The translations under genes were made by a program, and so were the position numbers. Below the pieces are notes generated by a model, which was not told the DNA's origin, made no database searches, and saw only the letters and a program-made list of their open reading frames with translations. A DNA stretch of 64,000 nucleotides from Eledone cirrhosa. Its lineage: Eukaryota. The stretch spans positions 294,376,001-294,440,000 of the forward strand of contig OZ024743.1 in NCBI GenBank assembly GCA_964016885.1, in the 5' to 3' direction. Positions 2,195 through 62,545 of the stretch are shown here, piece by piece (the stretch's first letter is position 1; every line of letters begins with the position of its first letter).

Positions 2195-3884
2195 TTAGGG
2201 TATAACGTGGGGCTGTAATACAGGAAAGTTTTGTGCAATTTGTTTACAAGCCGAAATTGCCTCAGATTTTTTGTTTAAGATGTGGTTTGTGGCGTAGAGT
2301 ATTTCCAGGGCCTCAGCGGCGCAGAGGTCACATGGTCTTTTATTTCCGTTATACGATCTAGCCCTAGCTAGGATCTCCCAGTATAACTTATATTGGGTGT
2401 GGTTGTCTTTTAGACTCCAGATATAAACTGAAAGTGACGTCATATTCCTTCTTAGAGGGTAACGAAAAGAATGGGTATGCATGTAAAGACGCTGTTTGAA
2501 ACTATTGGCGGTTAACCCTATGTAGGCCCTACGGGACGTGGGTGTTACAACTTTACATTTGTAGACAATGTTACTAGAGAGGCATTTCCCGGATAGGGGG
2601 CAATCAGCCCGATTCCTACAATTACAGTTGGTACTAACTACAGGGTTGCACGTGTTCCTACGGCTACGTAGTTTAGCTAAATTTGAAGCTGTGATGTTAT
2701 GTGCAAGGTTAGGAGTCGTAGGGTAAGAAATTTTAATAGTATTTCTATTAAAAATGTTACTATATTTATGTGTAGGGGGAAAATGCTTCGTAATAAGGGA
2801 AAGAAAGATCTTAGCTAATGGTGTGGCCACCTCCATATAATATGGTGGGTTAAACCAACAAATGCGACGGGATCTATTTCTTCTAGGTCTATTTTCGTAC
2901 TCTGTATATGCTACCTTATCGACAAATCCACTTCGAGCAAGAGCTTCATTGTAATAAGTGGAATGGTCGTTGAAAATGCGCTCGTTGGTAGAAAGACGGG
3001 AAAGCCTCAACGAAACGTTTCTTACCAGGTTCTTGGTTATGCTGGCAGGATGGTTGGAATGCTTATTTATGTAATTAAGCGTATCATTCGGCTTTCTATA
3101 CGGGTAATACAACCCATTCAATAAATTGAGGGTAACGTCGAGGTAATTAACGACCGAGAGATTGGCCTCAACCTGTATAGAGATGTTGAAGCCTTTAAAG
3201 AAGGCTGTGAGTTCTTTTCTGAACCTGTCGCAAGCACAAGGTCCGCACTTAGTCATGGTCAAAAGACCATCGTCACGGTACAAACCACCGCCCGCGTTGG
3301 GGAATTCGTCCTTGATAGAGAAAAGAAGGAAAAGACCAATAAGATCAGTAACCTCCGCAGAGTCACTGGCGCCCATACTCACGTCGAATGGGGTACTACT
3401 GGATTTTTTAATCCAAATAGAGTCGTCGAAATTAATCACCGACTTTCGGGCATTAAGGATGACATCAACTTCAAAATCCTTAACGACTGTGAGTGTTTTA
3501 GCGAAATTGATAGCTCTAAGGAGAAGTGGGAAAGTGATGGAGGAGCAGTAATTGTTGATGTCGAATTGGATAAAACGGCAATGTTCCTTGTTACATATGC
3601 CGTTGAACCAATCAATCACCGCGAAAGAATTGTTCCACAGTGCGAGAGGGGCCAAACTTCTAATTTCAGGGATAATTCTATCAAGAATCGTTTTACTAAG
3701 TCTACCTAAATCGGACTTCGTAGGGTTAATAAGCCGAATAGAGGGGTTGTTCGGAAAATTGGATTTGTGATCCTTCAGGGTAAAGTGGGGACATATAGGG
3801 TCCAGAGGTTCGGTCCGGTCCAGGATGTTGAGATCAGATGTGATTTTAAACCCAGCATCGTTGATTTCATTGATGACGCACGGA
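2195..3884 (-). pseudogene. PLE reverse transcriptase + GIY-YIG endonuclease, N-terminally truncated
   Basis: Motifs FDINNYCSSI, SMGASDSAEVTDLIG, LYRDDGL, YLDVTL, CNCRNRADCPL, IVYKC..AYIGLT..FKQRLYMH, CDLCAAE. The frame stays open upstream of 3655 (LKDHKSNF..IRLINPTKSDLGRLSK) to about 3884, then meets a TAT/TA tract. Collinear with the 739-aa ORF. Confidence 0.9.
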
Positions 3885-4340
3885 TTATTATTACTATTAT
3901 TATTACTATATATATATATATATATATATAGTAATAATAATAAATTCGAAGACTAAAATCCCAAGAGGGCTCGATAAGGATAAATATATATCAAATATAT
4001 AAGAACCGTAGAGCAAAAATTTATTAAAATAACAGATTAAAGTTTAAGCAAAGAATCGCTGCTTTCACTCTTAACGGGATCTTCTGAAACTAACAAAGTC
4101 AATCTGTAAACGCAGAAGTGAATATTTCAAAAAACGTTGCAACCGGAGGAAGACAGGAAGACGATTTGCCAGGGAACGTTTCCACGAACCAAAGTATCGT
4201 CTTCCTGTCTTCCTCCGGTTGCAACGTTTTTTTAAATATTCACTTCTGCGTTTACAGATTGACTTTGTTAGTTTCAGAAGATCCGGTTAAGAGTGAAAGC
4301 AGTGATTCTTTGCTTAAACTTTAATCTGTTATTTTAATAA

Positions 4341-7629: not shown

Positions 7630-9622
7630 AGGTCCGGTGCGTGTGTTTCTTATCGGCAACATGTCCCTCCGAAAGCATAACAATATATATATTGTTATGC
7701 TTTCGGAGGGTCATGTTGCCGATAAGAAACACACGAACCTGTTGTTTTCACTCCAATTTATTATAAATTAAATTTATAAATTTAAGAATTTATAAATTTC
7801 TGGTTGGTTGGTTGGTTCTTTCCACAACCAGACGATTGTTCATATATTGTCAAAGTTCTTTCATCACACATTCTGTGAGCTCTTCAGTGACTGGGGATTA
7901 TTTTCTTTGTTTTTGTGCCTCTCCTTTATTTTGTCCTACGCAATCTTGTTTTTGTGTGTGTTGTGTGCTTAGTTTGCGCATGTGTTACATATGGGTGTCT
8001 GTGTGTGTTTATATTTGTTTATTTATTTGTTTATTTACATGATACTGGTTGGTTGTTTGTTCTATGGGTGTGTGTGTTTACATTTTGTCCTTAATTGTAA
8101 GTTGTGATGTTGCTATTCCATTCATGTTTTCTATTTAATTTTGGTTGGAGTTCATTTATGTTTATTGCCTCTGTGATTTGTCTAAACATTGCGTCTTTTC
8201 TGTGTGTAGATTCTATTTATATTTCTATGTTCTCTAATTTATCCTTATGTTCTATTTTAGCATGTTGCTGGAGTACAGATGATTCTTTACTATCTTGTTC
8301 ATTTATCCGTTCGCCTATACTAGGGCTGTCTCACCTATGTACATTATATTCTTATCTCTACATTGTCCTTCAGTACATCTTATGCTATATACTACATTTC
8401 TAGTTTTACAGTTAATATGGGGCTTAGTTTACAGATTATACATTTCTTATCTATACAGGGAGGTCTTTGAAAAGGGTATGTATTGCTAATAAGTGTTTTC
8501 GTGATACAAATGTGTATCATACTGATATAAATGGGACCTGCCCCTTGTATATGAGCCTATTTTGGAATATAATAGAAAGAACTAGGAATAAGGTTAATAG
8601 AATACACTCATGATATGATAGCAATATATACCAGAGTGTAATGTTCATCAATACAATCCCTAGAAGTGAATTAGCTTACAAATTTAGAAGGTCCCTACAT
8701 AAACATAAACTCAATATTAAGATAGTAGAAAGACCAAGTACCTCCATAAAAACACTTATTAGCAATACATACCCTTTTCAAAGACCTCCCTGTGTAGATA
8801 AGTAATGTATAATCTGTAAACTAAGCCACCATATTAACTGTAAAACTAAAATGTAGTGTATAGCATAAGATGTACTGAAGGACAATGTATAGATAAGAAT
8901 ATAACGTACATAGGTGAGACAGCTCGTAGTATAGGAGAACGGATAAATGAACACTGGCGAGAGCTTCAAGATAGTAAAGAACCATCTGTACTCTACCAAC
9001 ATGCTACAATAGAACATAAGGGTAAATTAGAGAACATAGAAATAAAAATCGAATCTACACACAGAAAAGACGCAATGTTTAGACAAATCACATAGGCAAT
9101 AAACATAAATGAACTCCAACCAAAATTAAATAGAAAACATGAATGGAATAGCAACATCACAACTTACAATTAAGTACAAAATGAAAACACACACACCCAT
9201 AGAACAAACAACCAACCAGTAAGATGTAAATAAACAAATAAATAAACAAATATAAGCACACACAGACACCCGGATGTAACACATGCGCAAACTAAGCCAA
9301 CAACACACACAAAAACAAGATGGCGTAGGAGAGAACAAAGGAGAGGCTCAAAGACAAAGATAATAATCCCAAGTCACTGAAGAGGTCACATAATGTGTGA
9401 CGAAAGAACTTTGACAATATATGAACAATCGTCTGGTTGTGGAACGAACCAACCAACCAGAAATTTATAAATTCTTAAATTTATGAATTTAATTTATAAT
9501 AAATTGGAGTGAAACAACTGGTGCGTGCGTTTCTTATTGGCAATATGACCCTCCCAAAGCATAACAATATCGGTTTCAACACACATTTTCAGATAAAGAA
9601 TCTTGCTAAACGAATTCAGAAA

Positions 9623-12577: not shown

Positions 12578-12698
<121 letters not shown>

Positions 12699-12774
12699 GG
12701 AGAATAGTAGTTGCTAGTTAAGTTAGTCTTAAAACTGGAATGAGAATAAGAAGAAAGTAAGAACGTGTGGTGGG

Positions 12775-12859
12775 AGTTTTCGTCATCAGTTGTCTACGGG
12801 GGGCTCGGATATTTCAACGCTTTAAAGACAATATATCTACCCCAGCGCGTTCAATAACT
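12775..12859 (-). ncRNA. Rearranged (non-circularly permuted) hammerhead-like motif, divergent family member
   Basis: agttattg-aacgc-gctggggta-gata-TA-ttgtct-ttaaa-gcgtt-GAAA-tatc-cgagccccccgt-agacaa-CTGATGA-cgaaaact. Confidence 0.65.
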
Positions 12860-13263
12860 GGGTAAGTTAGTGTGGAAACGGAGGAGGGAGGGGAATGAAA
12901 TAGAAGGAGAAGGGAAAAAGAGAAGAAAAGAGAAAACAGCGAAAAAAAACAACAAACCGAGGAATGTGAGAGCAACTTAGAGTAAGAAAATCCAAGACCA
13001 CAGCGGTAACAGAACCTTAGTTCGAGAGCGTGTGGGCGAACGAAAAGACACGACTGATGCCAGCGAGTGTATTTATATAGAAAGGAACTCAACAGGACTA
13101 GAACTGTCCCTGATGACTAGGAATGTCTCTGTTGATTTCATACAAATGTGGCAATTTTAGTCCTGTAGAATTCATTTCTGTATAAAATATAAAATGCCTA
13201 TACTTTGTATTGAGTACCTTTCTTAACACAGTTTAACCACTGATACGGTAATCTACACACACG

Positions 13264-16595: not shown

Positions 16596-19441
16596 CTAGC
16601 AGTTTAGCCCGGCGTTTCTCGGGTTTGTTCATTTGCTATGAAAAGTTACATACAGGTAAACGTGGCTTGAAAGGGAATAAGCTCATCAATTAAGTGCATA
16701 AAGCAGTTGAACCGGTTATTAAAAGTTACGAACCAATTAGCATTTTGGACAATCAATGATGGGTTAATAATCTTCCAATAGCGAATTTAGCAGACCAAAG
16801 TTACAAGATGGTGGCCCTGATGCCACTGGGTGTCAGATCTGTCTGCCATGGGTGACCCTACCGGAAATAGTTTTCCAGGCGGCATAGCTCCAACACCTCC
16901 AACACCTGCACCAACATCTATAGCACCTCTTTGTAGACGATATTGCGTGTCATCCCTTGAGGAGTGTAAGCAAAAAGTCCATTCCTGCTCCCTACGCGAG
17001 AACAGGCAACATAAAGTTGGCTATGGGAGAAGCATGGCTCCCCCAAATGGATGCCCGCCACCGACAATGTTTTCCCTTGTGACTTGTTAATGGATATGGC
17101 AAAACATGGTCTCACCGGGAATTGGGATCGCCGGAAATCGAACGGTATATCTGACGCCGAGAGGAAAAGGTTCAACCTTGGAATGAAAATATTCTCCCCT
17201 CTCCCGCCCCCCGTTACAATGGTGGCCTCAATCAAGTGGGGCGCCAGTGACTTGACGACCATGCGAGTACCGTTGCACTGCTTTGGTGGACGCAAGTTCC
17301 TTATTAGCATAATGGGACAGCCAACCATAAGCTTAAGAATGTAAGGTGGGAGCCCTGGGGGCTCAAGGGAATCTAATAACTCAACCAGATAATTAACGAT
17401 ATCGTCGGGGTCCGACTCCCGGTCAATAGATTTGAAAATGTGCTCTTTACCGGGAATCTTCTTAATCAGCTGCTCGTTAATAAAATTAAACATGGTATTT
17501 TTCGGAGCAAGGATTTTTCTTTCGCTGAGCCTGTCGAGGTTTTTAAAGTTAGATGAGACATTAGGAAAAACTGCTTCCCAAAGGGCAGCAGGGCTGCTCA
17601 TAATGTTGCACAGACAGTTGATTGCTATGCCGCCCTTGTCATCCGCAGGGACCTTACCCTCACCAAGTGCTAAAATGTTCTGAGCAAATGCTACAGACAT
17701 GATGTCACCAAGCAAATGAGCACGCATATTTGTGCTCAGGTACAAACTCTTCATCTGGGGCAACAACGTGGACGATTTAAGGCAGGCACATACTTCATCA
17801 GCTCTTGTCCTTTTGGGGATGACAGGCAGCATTTGCGAAAATCCCCTGATAGCAGAAGGGTTACGCCACCCATAGGAGCCGTAGAATCCCTAATGTCTTC
17901 TAGGGTCCTGTCCATTGCCTCAAGGGCACTCTTGTGTGCCATTGTGCACTCATCCCAGCCAATGAGGCAACATGTTTTTAGAACCAGAGCTTCGTGTCAG
18001 CTATTGCTGATATTGCATGCTGGCGTCTCAGTTTTTAATAAATCCAAGGGGAGCTTAAAGGTTGAAAGTGTTGTCTTGCCTCCCCGCAGCAAAGTAGCAG
18101 CGATCCCGGACGATGCAACGGCCAACGCAAATTTTTTCTCCTGACGAATCTTAGCGAGAATCAATTTCGTTACAACAGTTTTTCCAGTAACCCCAGGAGC
18201 ATCAGGAAAGTAAATACCCCCAGTCTGATTTTGAACCGCGTCAATGATAGTTAAATAGGCCAACCTTTGGTCCGACAGAAGTTTGGAATTGTTTTCCTCT
18301 AAGTATTGGGAAAGAGATTCGATATCTTATGCTGTTTCCCGCAACAAATCCGGGGCCAACGTGTTAGTTTCCTCTCTGACTGTTGACGGCAGGCCATACG
18401 TCGCAAACTCACTCCCACCCATGTCGAGGAGGGCGTCCTCGATATCAATGTGTGCCCTGTTGTAGATAATGTCGAGTAACCAACTTCCACTGAAGGATAC
18501 TGGAGATGAGCCAGGCGCAGGAAGTCTTCAGGTATGAAGTCTCCGTACTTGACCCATACAGATTTGGGATCACCCAATTCACACTTTTGAAGCAAAATGG
18601 CAAAGAGTTCTCGTAGACTTTTAGCTGATTTAAACAAATAACCCTCTACTAAAGTGGAATCCCATTGCGTGCATATATATATATTTAAAGTCACAAAACA
18701 CTGGAGATATTAGACTTTATATGAAAAGAAAAAAAACATTAACACACACTCACCTAATCAGTGTATTCGGCAGAATTCCCAGAACTACAACACTATGGGT
18801 GTTGTCATATTAATATTTAAACAATTAAAGTCGTAAAAAATAAATAATTTAAACATTCCGATTCATATGTCTATAGCATTAATCTGTTATATGAAGTGAT
18901 ATTTTGCGGGTTGTTATTTGCAATAAGCCGATTTAAAATGCCCCAGAAAAGCCGTATGTCAATACGGAACTCCAATGACTCCCCCAGCAGTTAAATTATA
19001 GAGAGGGGGAATAACCTATCATAGAGAGAGAGAGAGAGAAGAGCGATGGAGAGAGTAAAGCTAAGAAACTATAGGGAGGTGTGTAAAACAGTGTTGTCAT
19101 ATAGTGAGTGAAGAGCGACAGAGAGAGTAAAGCTAAGAAACTACAGGGAGGTGGGTTAAACCTGAAAGCATGAAGAGAGTAAAGCAGTTAAAATATAGAA
19201 AGGGGGGATTGATCTATTATAGAGAGAGGGAAGATCGACGGAGAGAGTAAAGCTAAGAAACTATAGGGAGGTGTTAAACCTCAAAGCATGATCGATTTTT
19301 GCCCTTATTGTTAATTGATTTGAAATTATTTTGCTTCATAACCTTCTCCTGACCAAAAGCAATAATTGTCCCGACTTTGAATAGAATCCCTTGGAAATTG
19401 TGGACGTGCATACGTTGCAAACCTTAACACACACATCCTCA

Positions 19442-19502: not shown

Positions 19503-20289
19503 AATGGCGAGCTGCGTTGTTGCACATAGGTTACATATGAATAAAATTAGTCCTTCATCAGTGATCTTCAAACCTTCATTGGTATTTCATATACCTCTGG
19601 TTGGTGCGAGCAATAACTAAAGAAAGTTATTGGGACACGTAAAATAGGGTGAAGCGAGCGAGTCATGTAAACAAACATAGATGGTAATGCAACGGAAAGA
19701 GAGGAAGAGAAGAGACAAGTCCCTGATATCTATGAACTTAAGCTCGGCGAAATCATAGACGAAAGGTAAAGACCATCCGACCTGGGCGAGATGTGAGCGA
19801 GAAAAGGATTTCACACAAGTCAAACAGGAGGAAGTGAGAGAGGAGAAGAAGCAGAGAGTGAGTGAGTGAAAGGGCGAGGAAGAGGCCAGCTGAGAGAGAG
19901 TGACTGGCAACACGTCTGGTTGGTACGAGTAATAACGGAAAAAAACTTATTAGGACACGTAAATTAGGGTGAAGCGAGCGAGACATGTAAACAAACGGAG
20001 ATGGTAATGCAACGGAAAGATAGGAAGAGAAGAGACAAGTCCGTGATATCTATGAAACTTAAGCTCGGTGAAATCATAGACCAGATGTAAAGAGCATCCG
20101 ACCTGAGTGAGATGTGAGCGAGAAAAGGATTTCACACAGGTCAAACGGGAGGAAGTGAGAGAGGGAGAGAAAGCAGAGATTGAGTGAGTGAAAGTATGAA
20201 GAAGAGGCCAGCTGAGAGAGAGTGACTGGCAGAGGGGGTAAAAGAAGGTGAGAGATACAGAGAAAGGGGAAGCAGTAAGAAAGAAACAG

Positions 20290-20328
<39 letters not shown>

Positions 20329-20660
20329 TATATAAATATATGAAAAATGGCGGGCTGCGTGGATGCACATGGGTTACATATGAATAAAATTAGTCCTTCA
20401 TCAGTGATCTTCCAGCCTCCATTGGTATTTCTTCGCTTTAAAGATCATATACCTCTGGTTGGTGCGACAATAACTAAAGAAAGTTATTGGGACAGGTAAA
20501 ATAGGATGAAGCGAGCGAGACATGTAAACAAACATAGATGGTAATGCAACGGAAAGAGAGGAAGAGAAGAGACAAGTCCCTGATATCTATGAAACTTAAG
20601 CTCGGTAAAATCATAGACGAGAGGTAAAGACCATCCGACCTGGACGAGATGTGAGCGACA
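19500..20660 (-). repeat. Tandem/partial ~320-bp units of a pLTR-like element carrying the rearranged hammerhead
   Basis: The block gggacacgtaaaatagggtgaagcgagcgag..gatgtgagcga recurs at about 19630, 19950 and 20490. Diverged relatives lie at 45180-45435 and 53965-54135. Confidence 0.8.
20390..20477 (-). ncRNA. Rearranged hammerhead-like motif (internally deleted copy at 19547-19620)
   Basis: ttagttattg-tcgca-ccaacc-aga-ggta-TA-tgatctt-taaa-gcgaa-GAAA-tacc-aatgga-ggctgg-aagatca-CTGATGA-aggactaa. Confidence 0.65.
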
Positions 20661-23164: not shown

Positions 23165-23353
23165 AACGAGTAGGACCCCGACGGCTGAGCTCAAGCCGTT
23201 TCGACGGCTAATTCAGTCCAGAATTAGCCGTCGAAACGGCTTGAGCTCAGCCGTCGGGGTCCTACTCGTTCCTATTACCCACTCTACTACCCTAAGTATT
23301 GAGTACTTTGGTGCGTTATGGTCCATCTGGTTCCTTACCACATTTCCTTCGTT
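23161..23353 (+). mobile_element. Short (TA)n-embedded fold-back element containing the 3' half of a hammerhead
   Basis: Perfect 54-bp arms at 23161-23214 and 23221-23274, containing GAAA-cggc..gccg-TC. Other copies: 24981-25149, 44935-45140, 52801-53013, 53143-53324; partial copies 9687-9776 and 57858-57949. Confidence 0.8.
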
Positions 23354-28389: not shown

Positions 28390-28452
28390 TATTTTATTAT
28401 ACATATTTCAAAGGTACTATGGTGTTTAAGTACGTTTTCATCAGACAAAATA
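28390..28452 (-). ncRNA. Type I hammerhead, related to the intact-PLE pLTR HHR (another at 53385-53451 -)
   Basis: tattttgt-CTGATGA-aaac gtact..agtac cttt-GAAA-tatgta-TA-ataaaata. A partial inverted copy is at 28561-28655. Confidence 0.8.
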
Positions 28453-29496: not shown

Positions 29497-30094
29497 ACAA
29501 TATTAAATAAATGGAAAACTATATTTATAAAACCATATTTATTTCATTATATATATTTCGGGGATATCATATTAACAATATGCTATGCCTTCATCAGACA
29601 AAATACAATATAAACAGTTTTATAGATAAATAGATTCGACATACCGTAATAACACCGACTTCATTTTATTTTTTTTTCTCTCTATATATCTCCCTTACAT
29701 TAATACCTGAGCTAAATAAATAAATAAATAAATAAATGTATCATTGATACATTTACTCAAAATGACCTCCCACTACCTAATTTTCTATATATATATGTAT
29801 CTATCTCTATTTCCTCTCTCTCTATATATATATGTCTCTTTCTGTTTCTTTACATGAAGTTCTTCGCTTTATCTATCTCTCCATCTCTCTATTTTGTTCC
29901 ATGCATTTCTTCTTTTTCTTTTTCTTCTTTTTTTTCTTCTTTTTCTTCCTTTTCTTCGTTTTGTCTTTCTTTCTTTTTTCTCTCTTTCTTTCTCTCTGTA
30001 TAAAATTTTTTCACTGCCAGCGTAAACCTCTTCAAATGAAGTCGGTGTTATTACGGTATGTCGAATCTATTTATCTATAAAACTGTTTATATTG

Positions 30095-30160
30095 TATTTT
30101 GTCTGATGAAGGCATAGCATATTGTTAATATGATATCCCCGAAATATATATAATGAAATA
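30095..30160 (+). ncRNA. pLTR type I hammerhead (copies at 34047-34112 + and 29540-29605 -)
   Basis: tattttgt-CTGATGA-aggcatagcatatt gtt aatatgatatcccc-GAAA-tatata-TA-atgaaata, with a short palindromic stem III. Confidence 0.85.
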
Positions 30161-30340
30161 AATATGGTTTTATAAATATAGTTTTCCATTTATTTAATAT
30201 TGTAAATATACTCCAAATATTTGTCGAGTGCTTTTATATCAGTTATAAATATTTACTAGTTGTAACCCAACAATTTTAAATATAACTTTACATGTATCTT
30301 GCTCCAATACTGTTGAGCGCTTTATATTATAACTGGAAAA

Positions 30341-32560
30341 ATGGAATTCTTTAAGATTACTTCCTCTCTAAAAGACATACCTCTACCTAGAAACAAAGAC
30401 TTTGTAAAACAATTAATAGATAAATCTGACTCTTTTATAAGGAGAATCAGGTGGCGTGCATTCCACTTTGATAAATCTAATGCAGACGAAAATGTCTCGG
30501 ACTTAAACAAAGTTTTCAAATCTAAAAGAAATCCACCCCCTAACAAACTTTTATCTGACTTTGAAAACGATATAATTTCTATCATACAAGGGGTCAAATT
30601 CAAGAGAAACTTTAAAGGCCAGGAATATCTGAAAGGCATTAAGGATAACATTGAGAGCTTAGAGAAAACTGAGAAGATCTTGGTGAAATCTGACAAGACC
30701 AACAACCTCTATGGAGTGCGGAAAGACATGTATAATGGCCTCATACTGAAAGAGCTGAGGAAAAAGTACAAGGTAGCAGATAAGGCCGAACTTGAGAAAA
30801 TGAATGTCGAAGCATCTTGTATAATGCACGAGTTGGAAATTGAGAACAGAACACAACCTTTCGTGCCCAGGAAACCGAAGATCAATATGAAGGACCACAA
30901 GAGGAATTTTGAAAATGACCTGCCAGTTAGATTGATCGCACCTTCAAAATCGGACCTGGGCAAATTAAGCAAAAACATTCTTGACAGGGTGATACAGCAA
31001 ATTAAGAACGTGGATTGTGTATCTAACCTGAGCTTGTGGAAGGGAACTGGAGAGGTTGTTGAGTGGTTTAGGCAAATTAAATATAACAATAATAATAGGT
31101 TTATTCAACTTGATATAGCTAACTATTATTCTTCTATTACCCCTAGTCTACTAAATAAGGCACTAAATTACGCATTCAAACATACTGACCTAACTAGCAA
31201 AGAAATGCATATTATATTATCGGCTAGGAAAACTTTGATAGAATTTAATGACAAATTATGGACCAGAGCAGATAGAGATAGCAATTTTGACATAACTATG
31301 GGATCTTCCGACTCAGCTCAGGTAACTGACCTTGTGGGCTTATTTTTAATCAATTCGCTACATAGGAAAATACCTGGTACTACCGGAGGTTTATATAGGG
31401 ATGACATGCTTTTACTTATTAATAATAATAACCCTGAACTAAATAGAAAATGTAAACAAATTACAAATTTTTTTAATTACTTTAACCTTAAAATAGAAAT
31501 TGAGAACAACCATAGAATAGTCAATTTCCTAGATATAACATTAAATCTCAACACATGTCTCCACTATCCTTTTCACAAGTTGAATGAAAACTTAAACTAT
31601 GTCAACTTTAACTCTAACCACCCCAGATCTGTCAAAAACACTATAGTAAACTCAGTCCAAAAACCTATCTCTAGGATCTCGTCGAATAGAAAGATTTTCG
31701 ACGAAAAGGCCCAATACTATAATGAAGCACTAGCTAGGGCAGGATATGCTGATAAGATTGTGTACATAGATAATGATAGACAAACTAAACAAAGTAACAA
31801 CTTTTTTAATTACGGCAACAACATTAACAACTATAATAGAAAGCATTACAATAATTCCAAAGGACAAAAAAGAAATAGAACTAGGAACATAATTTGGTTT
31901 GCCCCCCCTTTCTCACTAAACATTAAAACCCACATCGCTAAATTATTTTTCAAAGCTCTTGATAATCGCTTCCCTAGAACACATAGGTATCACTCAATTT
32001 TCAATAGGCATACAATTAAATTAACCTACTCATCCACCAAAAATTTAGCACAAAATATTAATAGAATAAATAATAGGAACTTAAAACCTACTGATAATAG
32101 CATAAATAATATACAAGTTAACAAATGTAACTGTAGAGATAGATCTAAATGTCCGTTAAATAACAACTGCTTAGTTAAAAATATAGTATACAATTGTAAT
32201 GTTAATACTGACTCTAATTCTTTTAACTACGTCGGTTCCACATCGACGGAATTTAAACTTCGCTATAATAACCACAAGAATTCGTTCACAGATCCAAGTA
32301 AAAAATCTTCAACGGCACTATCAGGCGTACTCTGGCAACTTAAGCTAGATAACGTTAGATATTCGACGGCTTGGAATATAGTCTCAAGAGGGATTCCTTT
32401 TAATTCATCCTCTGAGACATGTGACCTCTGCGCAGAGGAGATATTCTTTATACTAAAATCTAAAAATTCCCTTAACCTACGGACAAATTTATTCAGTTGT
32501 TGCAAACATAGATTAAACTCAACGTTTAAATATAAATTTAAATTTAAATTTAAAATGTAG
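30341..32560 (+). CDS. PLE polyprotein: reverse transcriptase + C-terminal GIY-YIG endonuclease, 739 aa
   Basis: KSDKTNN, LDIANYYSSI, TMGSSDSAQVTDLVG, LYRDDML, FLDITL, SNHP, IIWFAPPFS, CNCRDRSKCPLNNNC, IVYNC..YVGST..FKLRYNNH, CDLCAEE, CCKH. No internal stops. Confidence 0.95.
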   Translation: MEFFKITSSLKDIPLPRNKDFVKQLIDKSDSFIRRIRWRAFHFDKSNADENVSDLNKVFKSKRNPPPNKLLSDFENDIISIIQGVKFKRNFKGQEYLKGIKDNIESLEKTEKILVKSDKTNNLYGVRKDMYNGLILKELRKKYKVADKAELEKMNVEASCIMHELEIENRTQPFVPRKPKINMKDHKRNFENDLPVRLIAPSKSDLGKLSKNILDRVIQQIKNVDCVSNLSLWKGTGEVVEWFRQIKYNNNNRFIQLDIANYYSSITPSLLNKALNYAFKHTDLTSKEMHIILSARKTLIEFNDKLWTRADRDSNFDITMGSSDSAQVTDLVGLFLINSLHRKIPGTTGGLYRDDMLLLINNNNPELNRKCKQITNFFNYFNLKIEIENNHRIVNFLDITLNLNTCLHYPFHKLNENLNYVNFNSNHPRSVKNTIVNSVQKPISRISSNRKIFDEKAQYYNEALARAGYADKIVYIDNDRQTKQSNNFFNYGNNINNYNRKHYNNSKGQKRNRTRNIIWFAPPFSLNIKTHIAKLFFKALDNRFPRTHRYHSIFNRHTIKLTYSSTKNLAQNINRINNRNLKPTDNSINNIQVNKCNCRDRSKCPLNNNCLVKNIVYNCNVNTDSNSFNYVGSTSTEFKLRYNNHKNSFTDPSKKSSTALSGVLWQLKLDNVRYSTAWNIVSRGIPFNSSSETCDLCAEEIFFILKSKNSLNLRTNLFSCCKHRLNSTFKYKFKFKFKM

Positions 32561-34333
32561 TATATTTAGTTTGATTTATATTTATATGGGAAACTAGCCG
32601 ATAAATTTTTTGATTCCTAAATCTTTGATTCCCTCTTTTTACTCTTTTTTTATTGTTTATTTTTATTTTATTTTTATCTAAACATTCCTCATGAAAAATT
32701 AAGCTACCCTAAAAGCTGATGCTCCAAATTTTTTGAATTAACCGTACACTAGATAAACTTCTATATTAAATATAAGAACATATGTAGACCTAATTGGACA
32801 TCATAATCTTTTTGAAATGATCTTTGCTAGATGTGATTTGATAGATAATTTTTGGCTTTGTCTTGTAATGAACTTGGCAATATATTGTCAATTAACTTTG
32901 AAGGGTTGTTCTTTGTGGTTTATTTTTATTTTTATTTATTTTTATTTTTATTTTTATTTTTATTTTTATTTTTATTTTTATTTTTATTTTTATTTTTATT
33001 TTTTATTATTGTAGTATTCTATAATATTTTTTATTTTTTATTTTTTATTTTTTATTTTATTTTTAATATCTTTAATATGTAAATTTTTAATACGTAATAT
33101 TTTTTAATACGTAGTATTTTTAATATGTAATATTTTTATTATGTAATATTCTTTCGTAATATTTTTTTAGTTTTCTATTCTATATTTTTACTTATTATTA
33201 TTATTGTTATCTTTTTATTTTTAGTTTTGTTTATAATATATATTTTTATTAGTATATTGAAATCTGCTCTCTATTTCTGCTTGATAGATAATCTTGTAGA
33301 GTAATGACAGGAATAATAATACGCTCATATTTTTATACCACATTGAGAATGTTTTCCGTGAACTTAGAGTTTGCAGAGTGAATCAGTTGGATTCGCATGG
33401 ATGTTTGTAGATGTCACATAAACATATGAATTTTTTAAAACTAAACATAAGATAATTAATTTTCACACATTATGGATACTTGTCTCATTCAGGAATACTG
33501 ATATTTACAATATAGTGTAAGTTTTATAAATACTAATACATTAAAACATAGGGTTTTTGCGCCTCGAATATGTCTGGCTATTTTTAAATTTTTTTCTCTC
33601 GCTATTTTTTCCTCTCTCTATATTTTTTTCTCTCTATATATCTCCCTTACATTAATACCAGAGCTAAATAAATAAATAAATAAATAAATGTATCATTGAT
33701 ACATTTACTCAAAATGACCTCCCACTACCTAATTTTCTATATATATATGTATCTATCTCTATTTCCTCTCTCTCTATATATATATGTCTCTTTCTGTTTC
33801 TTTACATGAAGTTCTTCGCTTTATCTATCTCTCCATCTCTCTATTTTGTTCCATGCATTTCTTCTTTTTCTTTTTCTTCTTTTTTTTCTTCTTTTTCTTC
33901 CTTTTCTTCGTTTTGTCTTTCTTTCTTTTTTCTCTCTTTCTTTCTCTCTGTATAAAATTTTTTCACTGCCAGCGTAAACCTCTTCAAATGAAGTCAGTGT
34001 TATTACGGTATGTCGAATCTGTTTATCTATAAAACTGTTTATATTGTATTTTGTCTGATGAAGGCATAGCATATTGTTAATATGATATCCCCGAAATATA
34101 TATAATGAAATAAATATGGTTTTATAAATATAGTTTTCCATTTATTTAATATTGTTATTTAATATTGTAAATATACTCCAAATATTTGTCGAGTGCTTTT
34201 ATATCAGTTATAAATATTTACTAGTTGTAACCCAACAATTTTAAATATAACTTTACATGTATATATAGTATATATATATATATATAATATATATATATAT
34301 ATAGTATATATATATATATATATATATATATAC

Positions 34334-54149: not shown

Positions 54150-56568
54150 ATGTATATATATATCGAACCACATTTTACAACAACAAAGAATATAACAAAC
54201 ACAGGAGACCACTTAACATCAGCAGACAACCTCTCTACCCCATCCATTTTTTAGACACAGCACACAGATACAGGCAAACAAAATAACACAAGAAAGGGAG
54301 GAGAAACCGAGAGTAATAAAAATTATCAATCTAACTAGTGCAGAACCAACACCCAACATTATCAACTTACTCTCCAAAGGTCTTAAATTCACACCGACCC
54401 CACTACGTCCTAACTACTATGAAATGAAGGAAGACATCACAAACTTCTGTAGAAAGTTACGACTCAGTGAAGAACTATTCCACCAGTACAATGAGGATGA
54501 ATCATTAGCCAGAAATAGAAGCAATTACACCCCATCAAAAGGTATAAATAAAATCCTGGACGAATTCTGTGAACACATCACAAACTTCCCTTACCAACAC
54601 TTGCACAGACAAAAACACAAGCCAAACCTCAACAAGAAAGAATGGGAAGAATTAAATAGATTAAAAACCGACAGAACCATTACAATTAAAGAGGCTGATA
54701 AAGGGAGTAGAGTAGTCCTAATGGAGACAGAATTCTATATCAACTTAGAGCTCTCCACTTTGGAAAACGAAACATACTACGAAAAGGCTGAAAACTAAAA
54801 TCAACAGAAAATAATGAGACACCTAAAAACTCTGATCAACCAATACAAAGAAGGACTCACTAACAAGGAATTCCGCTTCATCACAGACTTCACAAGTAAA
54901 TGCAGCCTTTTCTACGGTATCCCTAAAGTACATAAAATAGAATTAATAAGTAAGGCATGCAAGGAAGCCACAGACATAGTCATCAATGTCCCCTCACCCA
55001 ATGACCTCAAATTAAGTCCTATAATAGCAGGCCCCGCTTGCGAAACCCACCGCCTTAGCAACTTCATTGATACCCTTCTCAAGCCTTTTCTCAAACACAT
55101 CAAAAGCTATATAAGGGACGACCTAGATATGCTCAATCACCTCCATAATATGCCCCTTTCTGAACAAACCCTACTAGTGACTTCGATGCAGTCAACCTAT
55201 ACTCCAGCATCCCCCACAACCTAGGAATAGAAGATATCCAATTCTGGCTGGATAATTAACACAATGAACTCCCACAACTCATCAAAAAAGAATTCGTGAT
55301 AGAGGGACCAAATTTATCTTGGAGAACAATTACTTCGTTTTCAATAACAAACCCTACAGGCAGAAATTTGGGACCGCTATGGGAACGAAAACAGCCCGCA
55401 CTTATGCCAACCTAGTCATGGGATACCTGGAAATCACCCTCTAAACTAAAGTCCTAAACAAATTTGGAAACACTCTCCACTTACACATAGAAAGGAACTG
55501 GAGGCGATATCTAGATGACTGCCTCAACCTTTGGCACGAAAACATCGAGAAACCTAAAGAATTTCACACCCTTAGAAATGGGCTAAACACGAATATTAAC
55601 TTCACGATGGAATACAGCCATCAACAACTCCCATTCCTCGACATCCTCATTAAGATCCATAACAAAAAAATAGAAACAGACATATACTACAAGCCCACAG
55701 ACTCCAAGCAATATCTTCATTTCAACTCTTGCCACCCTAGACACGTTAAAATTAATATTCCTTACAACTTAGCCAAGAGAATCTGTACTATAGTCCCAAT
55801 AAAAACACCTGCTACTTACGGCTACAAGAACTAAAGGATACACTCATAGGTAGGGACTACCCTGCATCACTAATTGACAATGAAATCCAACGTGCCCTAA
55901 AACTCAGTACCCAGGACCTTAGACACCCTAAAGTAAATCAACCGAAACTAAAAGCTCTGCCATACATCTCCACACACAACCCCCTCAACAATGAGGCCTT
56001 TTACACCATCCTCCAGAACATCCCTGTGTTGAAAAAGGAGCATAGAATGAACCAAATCCTACGAACACACGATATCATAAAGAGCAAAAGACAGTCTAAG
56101 TCAATGAAAAACATCCTAACACATGCCAAAGTACTGCCAACCACTACAACGAAACCCACAGTAAAAAAATGCGATAGACCCAACTGTGGCATATGCATCA
56201 ACCTAATAGAGGGTTCGGAATTCTATTTCAAAGAAGGACAACGTTTTATAGTAAAGCACAATTTCACATGTGCATCAGAAAATCTAATATATGTATTAAT
56301 TTGCTCAGGTTGTCGAGAACAATACATAGGCCAGACCCAAAACAGCCTCCGCCAACGCATGACTGTCCATAGATCCCAAATTAAAATACGGGAATACAGG
56401 AAAATACCACTGAGTGAACAAATTGATACCCGTGCCGCCCAAAATCATCCCAACTTCAGAATATTTCCCCTCTACAAATTTAAAGATAATGCCACCCACA
56501 CCCAGCGCATCAGCAAGGAATCTCACTTTATTAATAAATACGGACCCTGTCTAAACACTTCTCCCTAA
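54150..56568 (+). pseudogene. Decayed Neptune-like PLE: RT + Zn-finger + GIY-YIG
   Basis: LLSKGLKFTPTP, IKEADKG, FYGIPKVHK, GTAMGT, RYLDD, LPFLDILI, YLHFNSCHP, CDRPNCGIC, NLIYVLICSGCREQYIGQT..LRQRMTVH, with several stops and frameshifts. Confidence 0.92.
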
Positions 56569-61604: not shown

Positions 61605-62545
61605 TTATTATAATGTTCGGTGTGTTTGTAAACCAACATCCCGAATTAAGCCGTACAGTGTCTAGCAAACATCGTTGCTCATTTGTTCAACTATGACAAA
61701 GGAACGCTGTACTAGTTTCAAGCTTTTTAGCTATCGTCAGCAACGCATACCTTCCTGCTAGATGGTTGAACGTCTGAAAGTATATACTTTCCTTATGCAT
61801 ATTAACGGCTGAGCAGCCTAATTTGCATATCGAGTAAGTTAATCGGCCGGGGTACCGAAAACGATAAACGGTAAAAATGAAACGAAATTTCATTTCTCAC
61901 TCTTAGTACGGCTTAATTCGGGATGTTTGTTTACAACCACACCGAGCATTATAATAAATGTTCGGTGAATCCATACGTACATATATATATATATGTGCAT
62001 GTATGTATATACACATGCTACTGTACGTCTGTATACATATATGTATGTACGTATACATACTTATATTTACGTAACAGCCGTACTAAGAGTGAGAAATGAA
62101 ATTTCGTTTCATTTTTCCGTTTATCGTTTTCGGTACCCCGGCCGATTAACTCACTCGATATGCAAATTAGGCTGCTCAGCCATTAATATGCATAAGGAAA
62201 GTATATACTTTCAGACGTTCAACCATCTGGCAGGAAGGTATACGTTGCTGACGATAGCTAATAAGCTTGAAACTAGTACAGCGTTCCTTTGTCAGTGTTG
62301 AACAAATGAGCAACGATGATTGCTAGACACTGTACAGCTTAATTCGGGATGTTGGTTTACAAACACAGTGAGCATTATAATAAATGTTCGGTGAATCCAT
62401 ACGTACATATATATATATGTACTGTATATATATATATACATACTACTGTACGTCTGTATACATATATGTATGTACGTATACATACTTATATTTAAGTAAC
62501 AGCCGCACTAAGAATGAGAAATGAAATTTCGTTTCATTTTTTCCC
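61605..62545 (+). mobile_element. Retrozyme/pLTR-like unit: ~426-bp period x1.5 plus an inverted 5' piece
   Basis: 61911-62118 is repeated at 62337-62543. About 61605-61915 is the reverse complement of about 62075-62385. Confidence 0.8.
62242..62284 (+). ncRNA. Minimal type I hammerhead (inverted copy at 61704-61746)
   Basis: acgttg-CTGACGA-t agct aata agct t-GAAA-ctag-TA-cagcgt, with a palindromic stem III. Confidence 0.88.

What the first reader, a model, noticed from the sequence alone, without database searches (positions are those of the whole stretch)
12775..12859. Highly divergent member of the rearranged motif: helix sequences replaced, core and linkers kept
This copy shares little helix sequence with the 20/45/54-kb copies. 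It keeps agttattg, the ttaaa-gcg linker, GAAA, UA and CUGAUGA at equivalent spacing, and the helices still pair. Its flanks look like a different repeat family. Inference: the fold is under structural selection and used by more than one element lineage, rather than being a one-off scrambling.
Basis: partly seen in the sequence, partly recalled or inferred. Interest (0 to 1): 0.75.

Follow-up and report, generated by a model that had tools for sequence, protein, structure and literature searches.

The report
Split-stem rearranged hammerhead ribozyme
This stretch is a slightly worn copy of an RNA motif that holds every catalytic letter of the hammerhead self-cutting RNA in a knotted order, with one core helix supplied by a separate strand; it recurs in thousands of short repeats in this animal genome, is predicted to cut itself, and likely explains why the Naiad jumping genes were reported to lack such a ribozyme.

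Summary
The motif is real. On the minus strand, 12879-12776 holds the whole hammerhead core in type-SGC order (site, GAAA, CUGAUGA), with the predicted cut at 12832/12831. Four window copies fit the descriptor against 0.01 per shuffle. Four helices covary: 95.5% of cells paired, 16 of 21 pairs changed on both sides. Unlike published SGC ribozymes, stem II is split: the strand before GAAA pairs upstream, and the strand after CUGAUGA pairs with the 5' flank, giving a predicted four-way junction. The carrier is a 568-nt non-coding Penelope-type repeat; a core pattern occurs 11,187 times in the genome. By eye, the same fold lies in 9 published Naiad consensi, and 5 other Naiad passages are type CSG. 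Corrections: 'agttattg' and 'gcg' are helix strands, the flanks are distant homologs of the 20-kb family, no RT ORF is linked, and this copy is partly decayed. Cleavage is untested. My searches found no paper on it; this scan had already noted the fold elsewhere in this genome and in others.

The parts
12681..13071 (-). 5'-truncated copy of the 568-nt non-coding family A repeat, running into a (TA)n tract at its 3' end
   Evidence: 89.9% identity over 406 columns to the family majority; unit length; relatives
12873..12879 (-). Helix IIa, 5' strand (GUUUCCA here, GUUUUCC in the family majority); predicted to pair with 12782-12776
   Evidence: 5 of 7 pairs left in this copy
12852..12872 (-).
   Evidence: two pairs change on both sides in B subfamilies (by eye); absent in family D
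12847..12851 (-). Helix IIb, 5' strand (AACGC): takes the place of the stem II strand that normally follows CUGAUGA
   Evidence: 98.2% of cells paired, 2 of 4 pairs changed on both sides
12840..12845 (-). Helix J, 5' strand (CUGGGG): equivalent of the stem I-II interaction helix of type-SGC ribozymes
   Evidence: 91.5% paired, 5 of 6 pairs changed on both sides
12832..12839 (-). Predicted kink-turn strand (UA), stem III 5' strand (GAUA), U16.1 (12833) and H17 = A (12832); predicted cut between 12832 and 12831
   Evidence: kink-turn by inspection only
12826..12831 (-). Stem I, 5' strand (UUGUCU)
   Evidence: 97.6% paired, 5 of 6 pairs changed on both sides
12821..12825 (-). Linker UUAAA from stem I to stem IIb
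   Evidence: SGC-3 has UUA here
12808..12820 (-). Block G: IIb 3' strand (GCGUU), GAAA (12815-12812), stem III 3' strand (UAUC)
12796..12807 (-). Predicted kink-turn bulge (one A deleted in this copy), J 3' strand and one unpaired nucleotide
12783..12795 (-). Stem I 3' strand (AGACAA) and core CUGAUGA (12789-12783)
12776..12782 (-). Helix IIa, 3' strand (CGAAAAC here, GGAAAAC in the family majority)
20385..20493 (-). Sister-family (B) copy of the same fold, H17 at 20448
45296..45404 (+). Sister-family (B) copy, core CUGACGA, H17 = C at 45341
53990..54098 (+). Sister-family (B) copy, H17 at 54035; the neighbouring Neptune-like ORF is a separate insertion
19545..19640 (-). Family B copy with a 15-nt deletion that removes most of the stem I 5' strand, the linker and the IIb 3' strand

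Best explanation
The stretch is a partly decayed genomic copy of a hammerhead core in non-circular (type-SGC) order with stem II split between two strands, carried by a 568-nt non-coding Penelope-type repeat; intact copies are predicted to self-cleave after the UA/UC, likely releasing unit-length RNA from multimeric transcripts that a Penelope-class (probably Naiad) enzyme would then copy back into (TA)n sites. Shown: strand order; covariation of stems I, III, IIb and J; seamless head-to-tail copies; PLE-type tails, inversions and (TA)n targets. Inferred: helices IIa and H close a four-way junction at the base of stem II (three-way in family D); a kink-turn or bulge joins stem III to J; the core stacks on IIb as it stacks on stem II in other hammerheads; cleavage; an RNA circle or multimer as template; a Naiad as the mobiliser. 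In topological terms it is the SGC/CSG/GCS ring with all three linkers closed and opened instead just 3' of CUGANGA.
For: Descriptor 4 hits against 0.01 per shuffle. Pattern 11,187 against 168, and the non-T variant 1,143 against 216. 0 of 80 listed phage loci with a similar pattern pass the stem I/III test, against 23 of 30 family A and 27 of 30 family B loci. 14 real copies of families A, B and D: 95.5% of 292 cells paired, 16 of 21 pairs with two-sided change, slid controls 31-44%. Six family majorities: 120 of 120 native pairs, 44-56% when strands are swapped between families. The tested ribozyme SGC-3 has the same UUA linker, the same single nucleotide between J' and I', and J right after stem II (read from oligos); all four of its stems were needed for cleavage. 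Published Naiad consensi show the split form in 9 passages and type CSG in 5 (by eye), although the paper reports no canonical hammerhead in Naiads and notes 'half cores'. Unit of 568 nt, two fixed 3' ends about 36 nt apart, 19 of 45 copies longer than one unit; seamless family B multimers of up to 9 motifs.
Against: No cleavage or RNA data. IIa and H were not run through the pair counter; the automatic IIa search chose other partners for B2, B3, B6, C and D, so IIa outside family A rests on reading majority rows by eye. In one search a greedy IIb-plus-J filter passed only 15 of 30 A, 4 of 30 B, 4 of 25 C and 0 of 25 D loci (it takes the longest run anywhere, and C and D are old). In one search the J and IIb partners were chosen for best pairing within narrow windows, and one search uses hand-picked, related copies. 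Single-strand folding gives no signal (z 0.18). No Naiad ORF was found in this genome. The 5'-end footprint is inconclusive. In a Poseidon PLE, ribozyme cleavage was not needed for insertion in vitro and needed protein. This copy has lost the junction-proximal IIa pair and a kink-turn A and may be slow or dead.
Confidence: 0.78

Rival explanations
1. The fold is a hammerhead-derived but non-cleaving (or protein-dependent) recognition structure that the PLE protein binds to start reverse transcription.
For: In Poseidon PAc, hammerhead mutants still insert, uncut RNA is the main substrate and cleavage needs protein. Most genomic copies read through the cut site (68 of 83 family A copies extend more than 16 nt past it). 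Fixed 3' ends lie 109 and 145 nt downstream of the site.
Against: All catalytic nucleotides and the UH site are kept in every family majority, which binding alone would not require. Seamless multimers fit cleavage followed by circle formation.
Confidence: 0.13
2. The active form is an intermolecular or tandem-dimer hammerhead of ordinary wiring, as described for minimal PLE hammerheads, and the monomer pseudoknot is only a bookkeeping view.
For: Copies are often tandem. Dimer-dependent PLE hammerheads are known (title cited, passage).
Against: The strand after CUGANGA is not complementary to the strand before GAAA in A, B, C or D, so no ordinary stem II forms in cis or in trans. All partners lie within about 105 nt. 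SGC ribozymes cleave in cis during transcription.
Confidence: 0.06
3. The repeat is mobilised by the abundant Neptune-like (or a Hydra-like) element of this genome rather than by a Naiad.
For: The Neptune-like family is young and abundant (16,435 candidates, about 95% aa identity); family B is also young; no Naiad ORF was found here.
Against: 0 of 30 Neptune ORF ends carry the motif within 1.5 kb. The Neptune 3' UTR is a different sequence. The two cases with a motif 1.2-1.4 kb downstream are insertions into (TA)n. Hydra-like ends carry ordinary type I hammerheads. This rival concerns the mobiliser only, not the fold.
Confidence: 0.2
4. Chance arrangement of hammerhead-like words amplified by a repeat.
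For: Copies are related by descent and single copies decay neutrally.
Against: Two-sided changes in 16 of 21 pairs; four families; the same wiring in Naiads of other phyla; 0 of 80 control loci.
Confidence: 0.01

Closest known systems
Type-SGC hammerhead ribozymes (HRIMA-1 and SGC variants; Eckert et al. 2023, PMC10085705)
   Same: Order site-GAAA-CUGANGA; full core; short linker from stem I to stem II; interaction helix J ending one nucleotide before stem I'; stem III joined to J.
   Different: In SGC the stem II strand and the J strand follow CUGANGA at the 3' end. Here they lie 5' of the site block, and CUGANGA is followed by another helix (IIa) that closes a junction with hairpin H. The paper assumed that block C cannot be interrupted. 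HRIMA-1 came from metatranscriptomes; this motif is in an animal retroelement.
Type-CSG hammerhead ribozymes (same paper)
   Same: Same non-circular ring; stem II strand, J, stem III', site and stem I run on in the same order.
   Different: CSG keeps I'-CUGANGA joined to stem II at the 5' end; here I'-CUGANGA is moved to the 3' end. The paper had two CSG sequences; 5 Naiad passages fit CSG by eye.
Naiad Penelope-like elements (Craig et al. 2021, PMC8557442)
   Same: (TA)n target, inverted truncated copies, 30-40 nt tail; the same fold lies in published Naiad consensi, at the very 3' end in the 5 that can be named; family D shares two words of the stem III/kink-turn region with the octopus Naiad ends.
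   Different: Families A-D have no ORF; no Naiad RT was found in this genome; the paper reports no canonical hammerhead in Naiads.
Metazoan non-LTR retrozymes (PMC7229834; bioRxiv 10.64898/2026.07.22.740005)
   Same: Non-coding head-to-tail repeats with one hammerhead per unit; proposed to be non-autonomous PLE derivatives that form RNA circles.
   Different: Those carry type I hammerheads and are about 170-400 nt; these units are 568 nt (A) and about 520-800 nt (B) and carry the split non-circular fold. No RNA was examined here.

Membership tests
Hammerhead ribozyme | Core CUGANGA, GAAA and UH with A15.1-U16.1 | tested here: met
Hammerhead ribozyme | Stems I and III flank the core and covary | tested here: met
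   97.6% and 95.7% paired
Hammerhead ribozyme | Stem II formed between the strand after CUGANGA and the strand before GAAA | tested here: not met
   At most one pair (10.1-11.1): A-U or G-C in B2, B3, C and D, G-U in A, A/A in B6; the strand before GAAA pairs upstream
Hammerhead ribozyme | Site-specific self-cleavage after H17 | not testable with these tools
   needs an in vitro assay; genomic 5'-end footprint inconclusive
Type-SGC hammerhead (Eckert 2023) | Block order S, G, C | tested here: met
Type-SGC hammerhead (Eckert 2023) | Interaction helix joining the far sides of stems I and II | tested here: met
   helix J, 5 of 6 pairs changed on both sides
Type-SGC hammerhead (Eckert 2023) | Block C uninterrupted (CUGANGA directly followed by its stem II strand) | tested here: not met
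Canonical type I/II/III hammerhead (Rfam models) | Nested three-way junction without core pseudoknots | tested here: not met
   stems cross; no hammerhead row among the 150 of 235 Rfam matches shown
Non-autonomous Penelope-like element | Tandem and inverted truncated copies, optional 30-40 nt tail, microsatellite target | tested here: met
Naiad clade | ORF with N-terminal GIY-YIG, CxC and DKA motifs and C-terminal RT | tested here: not met
   no coding sequence belongs to families A-D; the tie to Naiads is through the RNA fold only
Non-LTR retrozyme | Head-to-tail non-coding units with one ribozyme each | tested here: met
Non-LTR retrozyme | Expressed as linear and circular unit RNA | not testable with these tools
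   no RNA holder listed
Kink-turn | 3-nt bulge followed by tandem G-A/A-G pairs between two helices | tested here: inconclusive
   sequence fits in B3 and D, is a variant in A, B2 and B6, and is replaced by a 7-nt bulge in C; consensus recalled, no structure tested

The most novel reading that the evidence does not exclude
A hammerhead can be opened inside its CUGANGA-stem II block: a strand-exchange (Holliday-like) four-way junction replaces the base of stem II and the ribozyme still cleaves. Naiad retroelements as a clade use non-circular hammerheads (this split form and type CSG, two openings of one ring), and in this genome they spawned more than ten thousand 570-800 nt retrozyme-like repeats that replicate through RNA circles.
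Probability: 0.55. Interest if true: 0.85.

Novelty: new variant of a known kind. Interest (0 to 1): 0.7.

Why it matters
The block model of hammerhead permutations assumes that CUGANGA cannot be separated from stem II. Here natural sequences separate them and covary, so descriptor and covariance-model searches have probably missed a large class of genomic hammerheads. It would move non-circular hammerheads from soil and sludge RNA into animal genomes at high copy number, supply many more CSG examples than the two published, and revise the statement that Naiads proliferate without a ribozyme. A 100-nt transcription assay tests it. A junction at the base of stem II that can shift by one pair is also a natural place for switching and for ribozyme engineering.

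Tried and rejected
Neptune-like ORF at 54.2-56.6 kb as carrier: rejected. Hydra-like ORFs as carrier: matches near motif loci are scattered, in mixed orientation, and Hydra-type ends have type I hammerheads. Naiad RT in this genome: an octopus-Naiad motif gave 1 hit, a family D copy; two degenerate RT-motif patterns gave 2 chance hits and 0 hits; all long proteins among the best 150 GIY-YIG relatives had the domain at the C-terminus; a D-variant pattern gave 10 hits, all D-like. Absence is not shown. 5'-end footprint as a sign of cleavage: in 83 pattern-chosen family A copies, 15 end within -6 to +16 nt of the site against 8.4 expected (p 0.018), and 7 of 9 that reach the next upstream ribozyme end within about 50 nt of its site; but the windows were chosen after seeing the data, a similar peak lies 150-175 nt upstream, several ends keep the nucleotide 5' of the cut, (TA)n microhomology confounds, and family B shows 5 of 59 ends at +1 to +4 but 12 read-through tandems. 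Left as inconclusive. Minimum-energy folding: uninformative. Rfam: no hammerhead row among those shown. RNA evidence: no RNA holder listed; the one contig run only confirmed family-majority letters and may be the source sample. Pistol ribozyme was considered from memory because of the UUAAA and GCG words and dropped, since GCG is a helix strand here. Alignment A2 was dropped because three A rows were out of register; A3 replaced them. One search printed nothing (pattern length error) and was rerun. PMC5785218 is not held; PMC10162972 had none of six terms.

Full report
OBSERVATION. Read on the minus strand, the region holds stem III', UA, stem I, UUAAA, GCGUU, GAAA, stem III, a spacer, stem I' and CUGAUGA. 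A descriptor for this order finds 4 places in the window (12.8, 20.4, 45.3, 54.0 kb) and puts H17 at 12832; 200 dinucleotide shuffles gave a mean of 0.01 hits and a maximum of 1. The genome is 3.0 Gb. A loose core pattern has 11,187 matches against 168 for the reversed control, and a version that excludes the main families has 1,143 against 216. Of 120 phage stretches returned for a similar pattern, the 80 listed were tested and none passed the stem I/III test.

ANATOMY. From 5' to 3': IIa strand, hairpin H, IIb strand, J strand, short linker, stem III', UH, stem I, UUAA(A), IIb', GAAA, stem III, bulge, J', one nucleotide, stem I', CUGANGA, IIa'. The strand before GAAA pairs with IIb upstream of the site block (AACGC/GCGUU in A, UCGC/GCGA in B, GCACGA/UCGUGC in C, GUGCA/UGCAC in D). 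The strand after CUGANGA pairs, by eye, with the 5' flank (GGAAAAC/GUUUUCC in A, GGAC/GUCC in B). Core, IIa, H and IIb would meet in a four-way junction; D lacks H, giving a three-way junction. At most one ordinary stem II pair (10.1-11.1) remains. Between stem III and J the sequence fits a kink-turn in B3 and D, a variant in A, B2 and B6, and a 7-nt bulge in C (consensus recalled, wording prompted).

COVARIATION. On 14 hand-picked real copies of A, B and D, stems I, III, IIb and J give 95.5% of 292 cells paired, 16 of 21 pairs with change on both sides, 0 of 500 shuffles as high on four of five measures (further pair types 284 of 500), and 31-44% paired when partners are slid. Family C was left out because its spacing differs. 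Six family majorities pair at 120 of 120 positions and at 44-56% when strands are swapped between families (J and IIb partners were picked for best pairing in narrow windows). IIa and H were not counted by tool, and the automatic IIa search chose other partners outside family A. A greedy IIb-plus-J filter passed few loci (15 of 30, 4 of 30, 4 of 25, 0 of 25). Single-strand folding gave z 0.18.

THIS COPY. It is 89.9% identical to the family majority over 406 columns, with 8 changes in the motif: 12875, 12873 and 12782 (IIa), 12870 (H), 12846, a lost G at 12843, a lost A at 12803 and 12798 (J and kink-turn). Core and stems I, III and IIb are intact. Within family A, non-CpG divergence is 4.5% in the core, 2.8% in helices and 3.7% in loops, so selection on single copies was not detected. 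Against the 20-kb family, 22 of 40 helix nucleotides are identical and 8 pairs changed on both sides. The 5' flanks of A and B align along their length (score 130 against 73.9 +/- 8.9); A-C is marginal (2 of 200 shuffles as high) and A-D is not above chance (92 of 200). A and B are therefore sister families; C and D are more independent.

CARRIER. Family A is a 568-nt unit with the cut site 145 nt from its 3' end; 19 of 45 mapped pieces exceed one unit and read through the junction; 3' ends fall at two points about 36 nt apart, next to (TA)n; inverted truncated copies are common. These match the PLE hallmarks in PMC8557442 (passages). Family B forms seamless multimers of about 520-800 nt units, up to 9 motifs in a row. 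No family continues upstream into coding sequence. The Neptune-like ORF beside the 54-kb copy is a 5'-truncated separate insertion: 0 of 30 ORF ends carry the motif within 1.5 kb, the full ORF continues upstream with other sequence, and its 3' UTR is different. Five attempts to find a Naiad ORF here failed.

NAIAD LINK. Earlier notes of this scan pointed to Naiads, so I read the published consensi (supplement of PMC8557442: part 1 of 59 and search passages). In (30 of 62 places shown; 27 places shown) I read by eye the split form in 9 passages: the 3' ends of Naiad_Amil, _Aacu, _Anas, _Obim and _Ovul (named from the next header and the order of the metadata table), and four unassigned ones in parts 9, 12, 12 and 19; one more (part 25) is degenerate. 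Five passages fit type CSG, two of them ends of Nippostrongylus families. The other places shown were coding or unrelated. The table lists 54 Naiads; I did not see all their ends. The paper says Naiads lack canonical hammerheads and flags 8 'half cores' with the other half 35-50 nt away.

MECHANISM. Shown: order, covariation, unit structure, target. Inferred: stem II is rebuilt by strand exchange, so that the core stacks on IIb while UUAAA and J hold stems I and II together as in SGC ribozymes, whose four stems were each needed for cleavage (PMC10085705 section 14; rates 0.007-0.19 per minute). Cleavage of read-through transcripts would release unit RNA; ligation to circles and copying by a PLE enzyme from an internal start would give the over-length and multimeric inserts. 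Internal initiation and the tail were shown for a Poseidon element, where cleavage was not needed for insertion (PMC11167929 passages); that is the main caution. My test for 5' ends at the cut site was inconclusive.

COMPARISON. It works like a type-SGC hammerhead but fails one defining feature, the unbroken block C, so I do not file it as SGC. It is the SGC/CSG/GCS ring opened at a fourth place. SGC-3, read from the oligo table (supplement part 3 of 42), has the same linkers, and its stem II strands equal the IIb strands of the octopus Naiads. As an element it resembles non-LTR retrozymes (PMC7229834 abstract; bioRxiv 10.64898/2026.07.22.740005 abstract and passages).

NOVELTY. Eight searches of the held library found no description of this wiring or of non-circular hammerheads in Naiads; 'type-SGC' occurs in one paper only. 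PMC13725137 (passages) mentions variants with extra helices or other permutations without detail in the passages seen; PMC10162972 had none of my terms; PMC5785218 was not held. Of PMC10085705 I read the abstract and sections 4, 13-16 and part 1 of 2 of section 18. Subscription journals and unseen supplements are not covered. This scan noted the fold before, in this genome and others; nothing overlaps this window or this family's sequence. Verdict: real, a new variant of a known kind, cleavage untested, this copy partly decayed. Interest 0.7.

Noticed in passing
supplement of PMC8557442, File S5 (parts 13-15): Five Naiad passages, two of them Nippostrongylus ends, read by eye as complete type-CSG hammerheads with the interaction helix; only two CSG sequences were published.
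   Followed up: partly
window 30317-32560 (+): Open 747-codon PLE frame with a CxCx5Cx5C linker and C-terminal GIY-YIG-like region (Hydra-like; motif label recalled); no Pfam hit.
   Followed up: partly
window 2195-3952 (-): Second Hydra-like PLE frame, 41% identical to the one at 30.3 kb.
   Followed up: partly
window 30103-30160 (+), 34055-34112 (+), 29540-29597 (-), 28390-28444 (-), 53385-53443 (-), 62248-62286 (+), 61702-61740 (-): Seven ordinary type I hammerhead candidates with short palindromic stem III; no shuffle control run.
   Followed up: partly
window 54217-56568 (+); L200-L211: Young, abundant Neptune-like family with many open 784-codon frames and an upstream frame; its 3' UTR shows no conserved CUGANGA on the sense strand within 1.5 kb.
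   Followed up: partly
window 16918-18326 (-): PIF1 helicase fragments, probably a decayed Helitron.
   Followed up: no
window 46057-47538 and 48019-48452: Three identical 591-nt tandem repeats with an inverted partial copy, a PLE-like layout of another family.
   Followed up: no
window 7652-7723 and 23165-23270: Near-perfect hairpins, probably inversion junctions of repeats; they score against miRNA models below threshold.
   Followed up: no
L212 (G000:C1:43917000-43926500): Nine near-identical family B motifs in a seamless array at 721-806 nt spacing; a good source for circle RT-PCR.
   Followed up: partly
L206:3-2648 (-), L201:2-1609 (+): Open endonuclease-RT frames of an RTE-like LINE next to Neptune copies.
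   Followed up: no
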